The position numbers were made by a program. A stretch of 64,000 nt of DNA from Isurus oxyrinchus (Eukaryota): NCBI GenBank assembly GCA_026770705.1, contig JANJGN010000026.1, positions 38,502,001 through 38,566,000 of the forward strand, read 5' to 3'. Every line of letters starts with the position of its first letter. The first letter of the stretch is position 1. Shown piece after piece: positions 3,001 to 9,000 of this stretch.

Positions 3001-6000
3001 GATGATAAGAGGATGAAACATTTTAATTTCAGGATGAATCAATGTGGAAGGCTGAGAGTTGAAGAAATCCTTTAATTGACGTGCTGTTGGACCACATTTG
3101 CAGTGTTACCAAAAGCAGATAGAAGACCTAAAGAAATTGTGTGTATGTGTTGTGGGGGGGGGGGGTGGGGGGGGGGTGGGGTTGGTGGTGGTGGTGGTGG
3201 TGGGGGGGGGGGGGTGATATTTATAAGGGCGAGGGTAGAATTGAGAGACAGCATCGGTGAGAAATAATTGCAGCGGATGGGGCTGTTCTCACCAGTTAAT
3301 TCAGGACTGAGAGACTAGCTGAGAGAGATCTGTAAAAGGTTGACGTAGTTTGACAGGGTTGAAATGGATTTTTTTTCCCGCTTATCACGGATTATAAAGC
3401 TACAGGGCACAAATACAAGAGGGGGGAAAGCATCGAATGGGGAATTCAGGAGAAGGTTTGCCCGTAGGGAATGGTTACAATGTTGAATTGACCTTCACAA
3501 AGAGGGTTTCGAGTGAATAATGTCCCTGATATATTGTTAACCTTTGCAACCAGTATGGGGTTTTTGGCACAAGGGCACTCCAGTGTTGGTGGAGGGTAGT
3601 TCCCAAGGATATTTAAAGCAATGCTTGTGATTTCCTTTTGTAAAACAGCAGATACCCTGTCTGGGGCCACAAGAAGCAGGTAACAATCTCCAGAATATTG
3701 GGGTAAGAGCGGGGCAGGGGGATTCTCCTGGTGCCCTGGGCACAGATTCCACCTTTAACAAACACCACACATTACAAACACATGCACCGAGAACACAGTT
3801 CATTACTGTGGGGAAAGGAAGGCGGCAGCACACCTGATAGAAAAGCTCCCCTCCCCCATCCCTGCACACCAGAGTATTGTGGGAAGGGATTTCACAACCG
3901 GATCACAATCCAAATGAAGGGTCAGAAAATTGCAGCTTCCTTTTATAAACCTGTCTCTTATTCACACAACACTTAGCCAGCGACCCGGGAACCATGCGGC
4001 CCATCAATGCTCTCAGCGAAACTGCCCTGTGAAAATCAACTCGATCCCTTCAAGTGTTTCAGTTCAGCTCTGAGGCCCGGTCTCCCAGTGCAGTCCAGGG
4101 CAACAGTCTCCAGCTCCTCGTCATATAAACCCTCAGCTCCAGGCAGCAGAACGATGGGAATCCTTCTTGTTTTCACCCTCTGTGTATGTTTACCACGTGA
4201 ATACCGATCAAACAAACCGACATTGTGTGGGTTTAACATAAAGCTGCCCGAGTCCAATTACAGAAACAGTCTTGGGTTTTAACCCCGTTCTGTGGTTCGG
4301 CTCTGATGGTCCATTAAACTCTCTCTGTTTAATTTCCAGGCACTTTCAGTCAGTCAGTGGTACAGAACCCGCCAGCGGTGACCAGGGAAGGAGGGTCAGT
4401 CTCTCACCATCAGCTGTGTTTTCTGTAGCGGATTCTTTGCTTAACCTTTGACGGGCGGGGATTTCATCAGACAAACCCAGCGGGAGCGGATCTCCAACGG
4501 GGGGAGATATGTTGAGTCAGTGAATGAAGCAGAAAATACATTTTCGCTGGAAATTCGGGATGTGAGAGTTGAAGACACCACCACCTATTACTGTAAAGCT
4601 CAGTACAGATACTCACAGTGATGGGCCTCGGCTTCCCGCGATACAAAACTTTCACTGCAGATTATTACAGAAACAAATGAAAAAGCGGAGTAAGTCTGCA
4701 GTTAAACCCCCCACAGTTCCGCCTCACACCGTCTGCCCCACAGTATGATTTATAATGAGATTGGATTGTTGCCGTTAACATCTTGAGTTTTATAACTGCC
4801 GCGTGTGTGCGGATAGTGATGTCTTTCCCGGGGTCGGGAATGACTGATCCCAGTTACAAACTCCTGACACCAGATGTGATCCTGTTCCAACAGCTGGAAT
4901 CGGGAACCACACTCCCAGCTGTTTAACTAATATCCTCACATCTCACCAAGTATCCGAGGGATTTTATCCTCACTTGTAACACCGTGTTGGGTGCGTGGGG
5001 AAGCCACAGCAGGAGAAACCTGAGCAAATGCCTCTGTACAATCAGAATATAAATTCTCTGGGCCCGGATAGTGAATTGTCGTGTCGATGAAATTTTCGCT
5101 GTAATCTGTTTACATTTCATTGAAATTTCCACCATTCAGCTATCTTTCTTTGATAGTTTTCTCGTTTTATATGCAGCGAAGATTTCGTTCCTGGGATCAT
5201 TTACTCAGAGCTCAGGGCCTCACAAAGAACAGTTTGAATCGACAGAGACTTTAAAACATTGAATATTGTTGATTTATTTAAATCCGCTGAATAATTGGGC
5301 AGTTTATACTGTCTGATGATGATTTCCCGCTGTCGAGGTGTCGGCGGTTGTTGTACCGGGGAGACTGAGAACAGTGCCACTGTGGCGGATACTAAATATG
5401 TGGATGGATCCGGGATGATGGTGACTGTCACAGCCGGTAAGTTACTCCAAACCCCGCCAGGTTACAGCATGGGACGAGTCATGTTCACCATCAGTTTGTT
5501 ATTGTGATCAAAGGAGTTTGGGGGGAATGTGGGAGATGACGGAATCTGGATCATTATTGGTATAACGGGCACATCGAGGACAACATCAACATCCCGGACT
5601 CTCACAATCTAAATCGCTTTTAATGAGCAGAGATTGTCGATGATCTGGACTCCACTCCCGGTGTTGACTGTGACCGAGGGAGCTCTGTGAGTCCCTGAGC
5701 GCCCGGGAGCGGGGGTCACAGAGCTCTCACCTGGGCAGCAGATTACAGACCGAGCCGCGCAATGTGAATGAGGCCCCGGGTGAATAAACTCAACACAACT
5801 GCTGCCAGTTCGGATACTTGCAGCAGCTCGTTCAATAGCTGACCCAGGAGGAAAACGGGAGAGCGACACAATGGACTTCAGATATAAGAGACCCTGATGT
5901 GGGTCTAGGTGGAATTTTATTATTGGGAAATCAGTGACTGAAATTAGTGACATTGTCCTCACCATTTCTTTCAATTGTCTTCATAAAACGAATCACTTTC

Positions 6001-9000
6001 CTCCTTTCCCATCCTCAGACCGAAATGTGAACGTTTGGAACTGCGGACACTCCTCTATATTGAAAGTAAATGTTTGAGAGATGGGATTGCTGTAATGTAT
6101 CTGTGCCCCTGATAACTGTGAATTGAAAGAGCACAGTACAATGAGAGAGTGAAGGCAATGCATTAATCTTATATTTAACAGAATATAATATAAACAGAAA
6201 CGTAAGAAAACAGTTATAAACTAGGAGAATGCTCATTTAGAACTAGCAAGAAATAATTAATCACATGGAGAGAAGGATTGGATGATTTCTAGGCGCCTTT
6301 CAAAGCACAATTCGACCCAAGAGTGTTGGGTGATGTTTATGGAGGGAAGGACTGAAGTTGACTCTAGTCTGGAATATTGTGTAAAGTTTTGGTCTCCTTA
6401 TAGAAGAGAGATCAATCTGCATTGGAAGGAGTGCAGCAAACGTTCATCAGCCTGATTCCTGAGATGAAGGGATTGTAAAATGAGGAGTGATTGAATCGAG
6501 ATTTGGGTCTATATTTTCCAAGGTTTGCAAGAATGTGAGGCGATTTCATTAAAACATATAATATTTACAAGGGGCTTTACACGGCAGATTCCGAGTGGCT
6601 GTTTCCCCAGGCTGAGGAGTATAGAACTCGGGGTCAAAGTTTCAGGATAAAGAGTCACCCATTAGAGCTGAGAAGGAAAATGTATCTTCAGTCGAACCAT
6701 TGTTGCAAATCAGTGACATCCTGTTACTCAGAGAGCGGTGGGTGTTCATAATCTGTGTGCATTCAAGACAATATTCGGTAGGTTTTCAGAAACTAAAGGA
6801 ATCAGAGATATGGGCAGGGCGCGGGAATGCGACGTTGAGGTTGTAAATCAGCCAGGATATTACTGAATGGCGGAGCAGGTTTGAAAGGTGACATGGCTGC
6901 TCCTGCTTCTATTGATTGGATTCTCTGCTTTGATTTCTTACACTCCTGGGGAAAGAAATCAGCAACAATCCACATCTCTCTGGGAAGGTTGAACAGGCTG
7001 GGTCTTTTTTTTCTGGAAAACAGAACCACAAGGAGAATCCATAGAAATATTTTCAAGAATGAACTGTTTTAGTCTGGACAAATTGTTCATTTGTGGCTGA
7101 ATCCAAAGCAATAGCTGTCAACATATGACTAACTAAAAGAACAAATAAAACATTTAAGACAAATGAACAGAAACAAAGGCAGGTCAGAATGTGGAACTTG
7201 CTGCCACAGGGAGAGGTTGGAGATAGTATTAATCTCTTTATGGAACACTTGAAAATACAGGAGGGAGAACGGAACAGACCAACACAGGGAGCTGGATGTA
7301 AATAGTCAATAAGATTCCTGTGGGGGCAGGGCTGGAATTGATTATATACACAGGCTGAATGGCCCATTCCTCTTCCTCATTCTTCTTCCCTTTCTATGTA
7401 AAAGTGAGATGAAACTCCACCAGTGAACCCGGGAGAGAATCAGTCAATAAGCGGAAAGAATTGAAATTGTCAGAGAGCCGGAAGAGGCAGTTCCCAGTGA
7501 GTAACAGTAAAACCACTGCGGAAACTGAACAGACTGATCCCAACCGACAACTTGGAGACTTTGGGACAAGTTCCCACGATTGCAAAAACCGCAAACATCA
7601 CAACGAAAATGCGAAATAAAGGGAATGTGAAATCAAAGAAATAAAATAATATTAATTGTACATATTTGAAATTAAGCTGAACTGGAGAAAATAGGACCCT
7701 ATTGATAGAACATAGAGAAATACAGCAAAAGGCAGGGAGAAATTCCCGAGTAGTTTCAAACCGCAGTAATTGATTGACATTTGATCACTGGTGCACAACC
7801 TCGGTTTTGCCCAATCGGTGCTGATGATTCCCATCAGTTAGTGTTGGATCTTGCTGTGCACAGTCATGCCACACATCTGTGTTTCTCCCAAAAAACGTTT
7901 TTGTTTTGGAAACTGGTTGCCTCGATGAACATAAAATGTTCCCTCGGGTTTGTGTTTCACCAAGAAAATAGAAACGGGATTGTAATATAATTCATAGAAT
8001 TATCCAGCAGGGAATGAAGGCATATGGCCCCTCGTGTAGGCGCCGACCCTTTAAAAGTGCAATCCAATTGTCCCTCCTGCCCATGAATTTTCTCCATAGC
8101 TCTATATTTTACTTACATTTCCAGCACCGATCCCTTACCCGTTTGAAAGTTACAATTGAATCTGTACCCAACACCAATTCAGACAGTGCAGTCCTAATCA
8201 GAAGAGTTCATCATGTAAAATAAGATATCACCTCATTCCCCACTTGATCATATTTTCATAAGAGTGAACACAGTTCAAACAAGCTTCCAGCAAATAAAAT
8301 TATTGCACAAAGCAGAGCTCTTCAGGCAGTTGACATATTTACCTGGACAAACAGAGGTTAAACAAAAGTAAAATGTTCATTTTCTTTATCCTCCAGCTTC
8401 CAGTTCCATAATTTCCCGGAAGCCACCTGTACAATCCTCCCCTGCCAGTGACACCGTTACCTTAAGCTGTGAATACTCAGGGTTCTGTCCGTACACAGTT
8501 CACTGGTACCATCAGTCCCCAGGACAGGCTCTGGAATATCCGCTTCAGAGACACACTTCAGGATAGGAGAATAAAGACAACGCTGCTGGGGGGAGAATTT
8601 CTGCTTCTATCGATACTGTTCTCCTTACTATATGATCCCCTGTTACTATTGCTCTTCCTCACTTCCTCCCCACACCCTGTACAGACAGGCTGCTTGTGGT
8701 GCCGGAAGCTTAGCTCTGTCTGCACTCCCTGGAGGAACCAGCACCCTCATCAGCCTCCAAAATGCAACCCCGATTTCCGAGTGGGGCCCTAGGGGATTCC
8801 TGAACGACCTGCCTGTTTCTCTTGGACTGCCTGGTGGTCACCCATTCCCTTCCTTCCTCAAGTCCTTTCAGCTGCCTCTCTAAACGTGCTATCTACGATA
8901 CTCTCAGATTCACCGATGATCCTGACAGTTTATTTTATGCCGTTGTGTGATGATTCTTTAAGAACATACAGTAAAATCCGCACTTAAATTGAAGTGTCCG

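What the first reader, a model, noticed from the sequence alone, without database searches (positions are those of the whole stretch)
4154..8618. Complete NAR-TCR cassette 1 using IgH-type recombination logic inside a TCR locus
SEEN: L - VNAR-like V - 22/23-RSS, then 12-D-12, then 23-J with a phase-1 donor, then ~3 kb later a leaderless V-delta exon in matching phase with a CDR1 Cys. KNOWN: this is the NAR-TCR design described in nurse shark, a TCR-delta chain with two V domains needing two VDJ events. The 23/12-12/23 pattern is IgH-like, not TRD-like. Only one D is evident. This copy is inactivated by a frameshift, stops and truncation of the supporting V.
Basis: partly seen in the sequence, partly recalled or inferred. 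Interest (0 to 1): 0.65.

Follow-up and report, generated by a model that had tools for sequence, protein, structure and literature searches.

The report
Decayed shark NAR-TCR gene cassette
This is a broken copy of the shark "NAR-TCR" gene unit, in which an antibody-like variable segment set sits in front of a leaderless T-cell-receptor variable exon; the design is already known and this copy cannot work.

Summary
On the + strand lie: a hydrophobic leader exon (4154-4196); a V exon (4340-4613) whose 8 best solved-structure matches are all shark VNAR domains (E 7.6e-17 to 6.3e-14); a 22-spacer RSS; one 12-D-12 element (4959-5032); a 23-RSS J (5346-5436) with a phase-1 GTAAGT donor; and, 2,960 nt on, a leaderless V exon (8397-8613) with a phase-matching acceptor and a CDR1 Cys.

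The copy is dead. It has a 1-nt insertion, a TAA in the NAR V, a TAG in the supporting V, Gly in place of the a-b loop Cys, and no FR3 or RSS on the supporting V.

A second copy lies inverted at 37926-33030 (81-86% identical). It has the same layout and is also dead, but it keeps the supporting V's FR3 and 23-RSS.

The neighbours are V segments, one of which matches TCR alpha/delta chains best. The NAR-TCR reading is supported and an IgNAR cluster is not. The design has been known since 2006, so interest is low.

Not checked: phylogeny against NAR-TCR and TRDV sets (no vertebrate collection on hand), splicing, and the published RSS pattern (the primary paper is not held).

The parts
4122..4129 (+). 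TATA-like CATATAAA, 25 nt upstream of the ATG
   Evidence: Read and identical in the sister copy. A promoter role is inferred only.
4154..4196 (+). Leader exon, MGILLVFTLCVCLP plus 1 base, donor GTGAAT (phase 1)
   Evidence: Best 8-residue hydropathy is 3.09.
4340..4613 (+). NAR-type V exon, a pseudogene: extra G at 4385-4387, Gly codon 4394-4396 where the sister copy has the a-b loop Cys, TAA at 4442-4444, ends YYCKAQYRY
   Evidence: V-set 28.4 bits, cut-off 26; VNAR, E 7.6e-17.
4614..4651 (+). V RSS: CACAGTG, 22-nt spacer, ACAAAACTT
   Evidence: 13 of 16 positions; 33 of 38 positions shared with the sister copy.
4959..4986 (+). D 5' RSS: GGATTTTAT, 12 nt, CACCGTG
   Evidence: 13 of 16.
4987..5004 (+). 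D coding segment, 18 nt, the only D-like element between V and J
5005..5032 (+). D 3' RSS: CACAGCA, 12 nt, GCAAATGCC (weak, 11 of 16)
   Evidence: The sister copy has CACAATG-12-GCAAATACC (13 of 16).
5346..5384 (+). J RSS: GGTTGTTGT, 23 nt, CACTGTG
   Evidence: 15 of 16.
5385..5436 (+). J coding, 52 nt, ADTKYVDGSGMMVTVTA plus 1 base; donor GTAAGT at 5437 (phase 1)
5437..8396 (+). Intron of 2,960 nt between J and the supporting V. It holds a 389-nt stretch (7749-8137) that the sister copy lacks.
   Evidence: None of the 8 intron ORFs scanned matches an Ig family.
8397..8613 (+). Leaderless supporting V exon. The acceptor AG is at 8395-8396 and its phase matches the J. Cys23 codon 8468-8470, CDR1 Cys codon 8486-8488, TAG 8564-8566. 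The exon is cut off before FR3 and has no RSS.
   Evidence: (no hydrophobic leader within 700 nt upstream).
33030..37926 (-). Sister cassette 2, inverted and also dead.
- Leader: ATG at 37452.
- NAR V exon: 37272-37017.
- V RSS: 37016-36979.
- D: 36663-36590.
- J RSS: 36274-36236.
- J coding: 36235-36184.
- Supporting V: 33665-33361.
- Supporting V 23-RSS: from 33360, repeated in a 62-bp array down to 33030.

Best explanation
The region 4154-8613 is a germline NAR-TCR cassette in the V-segment part of a cartilaginous-fish TCR alpha/delta-type locus, and it is a pseudogene.

How an intact copy is taken to work (inferred from the anatomy and from the published design, not shown here):
1. RAG joins the NAR V (22/23-RSS) to the single D (12-RSS on both sides), and the D to the J (23-RSS). 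The 12/23 rule then forbids a direct V-to-J join.
2. Independently, the downstream leaderless V uses its own 23-RSS to join TCR-delta D and J segments.
3. Transcription starts at the NAR leader. The J's phase-1 donor is spliced to the leaderless V exon, and that exon's VDJ is spliced to C-delta.
4. The result is a delta chain with two V domains, the outer one of NAR type.

Why this copy cannot do any of that: it has a frameshift and a TAA in the NAR V, it has lost the a-b loop Cys, it has a TAG in the supporting V, and it lacks the supporting V's FR3 and RSS.

It is one of two diverged, mutually inverted duplicates in the window. Both are dead.
For: NAR identity of the V:
- PDB search: 6,317 sequences matched at E up to 1, and 60 are shown. 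The 8 best are all VNAR or new-antigen-receptor domains, E 7.6e-17 to 6.3e-14, aligned nearly end to end.
- Pfam V-set scores 28.4 bits against a cut-off of 26.

NAR-TcR marks named in PMC1845163 (passages read):
- Leader present.
- Canonical Trp absent (alignment).
- a-b loop Cys present in the sister copy, RKECQSLTITC.
- Downstream V without a leader. In the 700 nt upstream, the best ATG-to-GT candidate reaches hydropathy 1.1 in cassette 1 and 0.76 in cassette 2. The NAR leader reaches 3.09 and a conventional V at 53255-53306 reaches 1.91.
- CDR1 Cys present.

Recombination and splice anatomy:
- RSS anatomy and the single D.
- Phase-1 GTAAGT donor and a phase-matching acceptor.

No Ig constant exon after the J: none of 10 ORFs scanned matches an Ig family.

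Same layout in the inverted sister copy: 81.5% identity over 4,117 nt and 85.7% over 477 nt. That copy supplies the supporting V's FR3 (ending YYCALSRR) and its 23-RSS.

Neighbourhood of V segments:
- 7 of 10 ORFs scanned have V-set as the best family, 4 of them above the cut-off.
- The V at 55842-55477 has TCR alpha and delta chains as its best single-domain PDB matches, from E 2.7e-12.

Lesions.
Against: - No transcript data exist here, so the J-to-supporting-V splice is inferred from phase and signals only.
- The delta-type identity of the supporting V is not shown by sequence. Its N-terminal half and its FR3 match antibody V domains as well as or better than TCR chains in PDB. The Atlas gives only a lead to a 'TVA4' cluster, score 0.95.
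- No TCR constant, D or J segments lie in the window, so 'TCR locus' rests on the V neighbours.
- In the sister copy the phase-matching acceptor AG is mutated (CCAG to CCCG). The splice design is therefore intact in one copy only.
- Identity between the copies is flat over exons and introns, 82-88%. There is no sign of selection on the parts since the duplication.
- No NAR-TCR V sequences could be compared. The only outside NAR sequences on hand were IgNAR domains in PDB.
Confidence: 0.85

Rival explanations
1. It is a decayed IgNAR (antibody) cluster, V-D-J followed by Ig constant exons, and not a TCR element.
For: All outside matches of the V are IgNAR V domains. IgNAR genes are reported to be linked near the TCR alpha/delta locus in elasmobranchs (abstract and passages of PMC12227049).
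Against: - IgNAR clusters have three D segments (passages of PMC4622739). Here there is one D in each copy.
- The next Ig-type exon after the J is a V, in both copies.
- None of 10 ORFs in the intron and downstream matches an Ig family.
- The canonical Trp is absent, which is a published NAR-TcR mark.
- PDB holds no NAR-TCR V, so IgNAR being the best match is what one would expect either way.
Confidence: 0.03
2. The NAR V-D-J and the downstream V are unrelated neighbours. The downstream V is an ordinary V pseudogene that lost its leader, and no splice ever joined them.
For: There is no expression evidence. Both copies are dead. V pseudogenes abound in the window.
Against: - The same pairing and spacing occur in the sister copy.
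- The J has a perfect GTAAGT donor in both copies.
- The acceptor has a polypyrimidine tract and the matching phase.
- No leader candidate lies within 700 nt upstream in either copy.
- The CDR1 Cys is the mark published for NAR-TcR-associated delta V.
- The two copies are duplicates, so they count as one origin and not as two independent cases.
Confidence: 0.05
3. The cassette is functional in the animal, and the lesions are sequencing or assembly errors.
For: The frameshift sits in a G run (4385-4387), which is a typical error site.
Against: Five separate lesions, including two point stops, a Cys-to-Gly change and the loss of FR3 and the RSS, are unlikely all to be errors. The sister copy is broken at other places. 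Identity between the copies is flat over exons and introns.
Confidence: 0.05

Closest known systems
NAR-TcR of nurse shark (Criscitiello, Saltis and Flajnik 2006, PNAS 103:5036) and of elephant shark (PMC1845163)
   Same: - A NAR-type V with a leader and no canonical Trp, and with an a-b loop Cys (kept in the sister copy).
- Its own D and J.
- A linked leaderless V with a CDR1 Cys.
- Two separate rearrangements needed.
The marks are taken from passages of PMC1845163. The general design is taken from passages of PMC5931798, PMC3457774 and PMC12227049.
   Different: This copy is dead and its supporting V is truncated. I recall from the 2006 paper that it described a single D and a J spliced to the supporting V, but I could not read it (not held). 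I do not know whether it reports the 23/12-12/23 RSS pattern.
IgNAR heavy-chain cluster (V, D1, D2, D3, J, constant exons)
   Same: The V domain family is the same, about 60% identical over the aligned stretch in the best PDB match (read from the alignment). The G-x-G-(T)-x-V-T-V J core is similar. My recollection is that the V has a 23-RSS and the J a 23-RSS there as well.
   Different: One D instead of three. A V exon follows the J instead of constant exons. The canonical Trp is missing.
TCR mu of marsupials and monotremes
   Same: A TCR chain with two V domains, the outer one antibody-like and the inner one a supporting V (passages of PMC3457774 and PMC7615758).
   Different: Those papers hold it to be convergent and not related. 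TCR mu has its own constant gene in clusters, and the marsupial supporting V is germline-joined.
IGH-type RSS arrangement (V 23, D 12/12, J 23) against mammalian TRD (V 23, D 12/23, J 12)
   Same: The NAR V-D-J part follows the IGH pattern.
   Different: The comparison rests on recalled textbook knowledge of mammalian loci. No TRD D or J segment of this species is in the window to compare.

Membership tests
NAR-TcR cassette | N-terminal V of the NAR family | tested here: met
   the 8 best PDB rows are all VNAR, E 7.6e-17 to 6.3e-14, aligned over residues 3-72/75 of 76; the window's conventional V segments match only in FR3, at E 1.7e-4 or worse.
NAR-TcR cassette | NAR V has a typical leader peptide (PMC1845163) | tested here: met
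   MGILLVFTLCVCLP, donor GTGAAT, phase 1, 143-nt intron.
NAR-TcR cassette | NAR V lacks the canonical Trp of the WYRK motif (PMC1845163) | tested here: met
   Alignment: Gly is aligned to the VNAR Trp (GGDFIRQ against YWYFTKK). The sister copy also has no Trp there.
NAR-TcR cassette | Cys in the a-b loop of the NAR V (PMC1845163) | tested here: not met
   This copy has Gly (GGT 4394-4396). The sister copy has Cys at the same column (TGT). I read this as a decay mutation of a dead copy.
NAR-TcR cassette | Linked supporting V without a leader, entered by a splice from the NAR J | tested here: met
   No hydrophobic ATG-to-GT candidate lies within 700 nt upstream in either copy. The donor is phase 1 and the acceptor matches it. 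Splicing itself was not tested.
NAR-TcR cassette | Conserved Cys in CDR1 of the supporting V (PMC1845163) | tested here: met
   CEYSGFCPYTVHW, codon 8486-8488. The sister copy has Trp there.
NAR-TcR cassette | Supporting V is a TCR delta V that rearranges to TRD D-J and is spliced to C-delta | tested here: inconclusive
   The sister copy keeps a 23-RSS. By sequence, the halves of the V match antibody V domains as well as TCR chains, and the Atlas gives only a lead to a TCR V-alpha cluster. This copy has no RSS at all, and no D, J or C-delta lies in the window.
NAR-TcR cassette | Lies in the TCR alpha/delta locus | tested here: inconclusive
   The neighbours are V segments, and one has TCR alpha/delta chains as its best single-domain matches. 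There is no constant gene in the window.
IgNAR cluster | Three D segments between V and J (PMC4622739) | tested here: not met
   one D-like place in each copy.
IgNAR cluster | J followed by Ig constant exons | tested here: not met
   The next Ig-type exon is a V. None of 10 ORFs scanned matches an Ig family.

The most novel reading that the evidence does not exclude
The two dead cassettes record germline remodelling of NAR-TCR units. The cassettes are inverted to each other while a 1.8-kb flank is a direct repeat. The sister copy's supporting V is followed by five whole 23-RSS in a 62-bp tandem array. If germline recombinase activity or RSS-centred breakage made these changes, the locus would show how the NAR V(D)J block moves between TCR and Ig loci.
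Probability: 0.06. Interest if true: 0.6.

Novelty: new member of a known kind. Interest (0 to 1): 0.25.

Why it matters
The value is mainly in annotation. The region marks this stretch as part of a cartilaginous-fish TCR V region. It gives a clean germline layout of a NAR-TCR unit: V with a 22/23-RSS, one 12-D-12, a 23-RSS J with a phase-1 donor, and a leaderless V with a matching acceptor. It also shows that such units duplicate, invert and decay.

The layout fits the published view that a NAR V(D)J block was passed between the TCR delta and Ig loci. As a dead copy of a known design, it opens no new question by itself.

Tried and rejected
Literature:
- The primary NAR-TcR paper and three related papers were not held.
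- The published RSS pattern and D number of NAR-TcR therefore stay unverified. Six searches and passages of nine held papers gave the protein marks and the general design, but no RSS data.
- Supplements were not opened. Table S1 of PMC12227049 lists scaffold coordinates of NARTCR V genes and may bear on whether this copy is already mapped.

Phylogeny against NAR-TCR V, IgNAR V and TRDV sets was not possible. The open collections hold bacteria, archaea, phages, plasmids and E. coli only, so they were not searched.

Assigning the supporting V to delta by sequence gave no clear answer. PDB searches with its halves were dominated by multi-domain antibody constructs. The Atlas gave only V-set clusters.

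Other checks that led nowhere:
- A remnant of the lost FR3 and RSS of this copy was looked for downstream and upstream and was not found.
- A simple single-inversion model for the two cassettes does not fit the position of the poly-G tracts, so it was dropped.
- Selection on the RSS inside the 62-bp array: the heptamer is invariant in 6 of 6 copies, but there are too few copies to tell.
- Differences in conservation between exons and introns of the two copies: none seen.

No structure or complex prediction was run, because neither would bear on the verdict.
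Full report
**What is there.** The window is vertebrate DNA. I take it for cartilaginous fish because of its VNAR-type V segments, and not for human. It holds two N runs (18728-18901 and 43120-43344), which I left untouched.

At the coordinates of the finding, the + strand carries these elements in order:
- a TATA-like CATATAAA (4122-4129);
- a leader exon, 4154-4196, MGILLVFTLCVCLP, with donor GTGAAT in phase 1;
- a 143-nt intron;
- a V exon, 4340-4613;
- an RSS, CACAGTG-22-ACAAAACTT (4614-4651);
- one D, with GGATTTTAT-12-CACCGTG (4959-4986), 18 nt of coding sequence (4987-5004) and CACAGCA-12-GCAAATGCC (5005-5032);
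- a J, with GGTTGTTGT-23-CACTGTG (5346-5384) and 52 nt of coding sequence (5385-5436, ADTKYVDGSGMMVTVTA plus one base), ending in G|GTAAGT;
- a 2,960-nt intron;
- a V exon that starts at 8397, behind a polypyrimidine tract and an AG.

The first two bases of that last exon complete the J's split codon. The reading then runs ASSSIISRKPPVQSSPASDTVTLSCEYSGFCPYTVHWYHQSPGQALEY, with a Cys in CDR1.

**Is it more than chance?** RSS matching at least 13 of 16 consensus positions number 13 (22/23 spacer) and 3 (12 spacer) in the window. Thirty shuffles gave means of 0.23 and 0.13. A scan for two facing RSS around 6-40 nt finds one place between V and J in each of the two cassettes, at homologous positions. 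It finds four places in the whole window, and shuffles gave 1.0 hit combinations per 64 kb. The D's 3' RSS in this copy is weak (11 of 16). The sister copy's is better (13 of 16).

**What the V is.** I searched exon by exon and piece by piece. I did not build or search the joined leader-V-D-J-supporting-V reading.

The V exon was read from 4385 with X at its TAA. It scores above the Pfam V-set cut-off (28.4 bits against 26). In PDB its 8 best rows are all VNAR or new-antigen-receptor domains (E 7.6e-17 to 6.3e-14), aligned over residues 3-72/75 of 76. In total 6,317 sequences matched at E up to 1, and 60 are shown. Ordinary antibody and TCR V domains match only FR3. The conventional V segments of the window match it only in FR3, at E 1.7e-4 or worse.

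**NAR-TCR or IgNAR?** Passages of PMC1845163 name the marks of NAR-TcR V: a typical leader, a Cys in the a-b loop, and no canonical Trp. For the associated delta V they name no leader and a conserved CDR1 Cys. Here:
- The leader is present.
- Gly is aligned to the VNAR Trp.
- The a-b loop Cys is present in the sister copy, RKECQSLTITC, and is Gly in this one.
- No hydrophobic leader candidate lies within 700 nt upstream of the downstream V in either copy. The best hydropathy values are 1.1 and 0.76, against 3.09 for the NAR leader and 1.91 for a conventional V leader at 53255-53306.
- The CDR1 Cys is present.

IgNAR clusters have three D segments and constant exons (passages of PMC4622739). 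Here there is one D, and the next Ig-type exon is a V. None of 10 ORFs scanned matches an Ig family; 8 of them lie in the intron and 2 beyond the break. I therefore file the region as a NAR-TCR cassette.

**Why it is dead.** Compared with the sister copy, this one has several lesions:
- an extra G in the run 4385-4387, which splits the V exon into two frames;
- a TAA at 4442-4444;
- the Cys-to-Gly change at 4394-4396;
- a TAG at 8564-8566, where the sister copy has GAG;
- loss of all homology after about 8613, so that FR3 and the RSS of the supporting V are gone.

No remnant of the lost part was found elsewhere in the window.

**The sister copy.** A second cassette lies inverted at 37926-33030. 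It is 81.5% identical over 4,117 nt and 85.7% over 477 nt, and it has the same order of parts. It is broken in other ways:
- a 1-nt loss in the leader, and GC in place of the donor GT;
- indels and a 19-nt deletion in the NAR V;
- Ser in place of the second canonical Cys (YYS);
- loss of the phase-matching acceptor AG;
- Trp in place of the CDR1 Cys;
- a 1-nt deletion in the supporting V.

It keeps three things:
- the J, VSYKDVDGPGTMVTVTA;
- the supporting V's FR3, GGRISASIDPAEKVERLKIFKLQLNDSAVYYCALSRR;
- the supporting V's 23-RSS.

Identity between the copies is flat across the parts: V exon 81.6%, introns 83.6-85.5%, RSS 75-87%, J 84.6%, supporting V 88.0%. The D coding stretch shares only 8 of 18 positions. 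There is thus no sign of purifying selection since the duplication.

**Context.** The window holds further V segments on both strands. Of 10 ORFs scanned, 7 have V-set as the best family, 4 of them above the cut-off. The V at 55842-55477 has TCR alpha and delta chains as its best single-domain PDB matches, from E 2.7e-12.

This supports a TCR alpha/delta V region, but no constant, D or J segment of the TCR lies in the window. The delta identity of the supporting V itself could not be shown. Its halves match antibody V domains at least as well as TCR chains, and the Atlas gives only a lead.

**How it would work.** This is inferred for an intact copy. Two independent RAG-driven assemblies are needed. 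One is NAR V to D to J, where the 23/12-12/23 spacers force use of the D. The other is the supporting V, through its own 23-RSS, to TRD D-J. One transcript from the NAR leader is then spliced J-to-supporting-V and on to C-delta.

What is shown here: the signals, their spacing and the phases. What is not shown: recombination, splicing and pairing.

**Known or new.** The design was published in 2006. I could not read that paper. Other papers describe it. That the 2006 paper reports one D and a J-to-V splice is my recollection. Whether it reports the RSS spacers, I do not know. Calling the pattern 'IgH-like, not TRD-like' rests on recalled textbook mammalian loci.

This is a new, dead member of a known kind. 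Interest is low.

Noticed in passing
window 33030-33360 (- strand): A 62-bp tandem array (5.4 copies, 86% matches). Every unit is a whole 23-RSS (CACAGTG, 23 nt, ACAAAAACC-like) plus 23 nt. The first unit is the RSS of the sister cassette's supporting V, so that V is followed by five complete RSS and a sixth heptamer.
   Followed up: partly
window 5-1846 and 29998-31830: A 1.8-kb direct repeat (78.9% identical) lies beside both cassettes, while the cassettes themselves are inverted to each other. This points to an inversion after a segmental duplication. The break points were not resolved, and the poly-G tracts at 3154-3214 and 32934-32996 do not fit one simple inversion.
   Followed up: partly
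window 41686-42624 (+) and 25355-26280 (-): An open 313-residue rhodopsin-type receptor ORF lies among the V segments (Pfam 7tm_1, E 9.1e-22). A diverged paralogue (63% over 875 nt) has only a 164-residue open stretch left.
   Followed up: partly
window 53255-53807 (+): A conventional V with a leader (MLGFIFYSFLTVAARLP, donor GTAAGT), an open V exon and a perfect CACAGTG-23-ACAAAAACC RSS. It has Phe where Cys23 is expected and Leu where Trp41 is expected.
   Followed up: partly
window 18090-18281, 20990-21190, 52446-52538, 59819-59962 (+); 46819-46997, 55477-55842, 60841-61227 (-): Further V segments or V fragments lie on both strands, several with in-frame stops. Some show WY-x-QYP-type FR2 motifs, which I recall as typical of TCR alpha V.
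   Followed up: partly
window 7749-8137: A 389-nt stretch inside the J-to-supporting-V intron of cassette 1 is absent from cassette 2. Whether it is an insertion here or a deletion there was not decided.
   Followed up: no
window 14724-15851: A stretch of about 1.1 kb matches its own reverse complement at 79%. It holds two inverted copies of a short repeat that is also found at 11142-11257 and 41565-41680.
   Followed up: no
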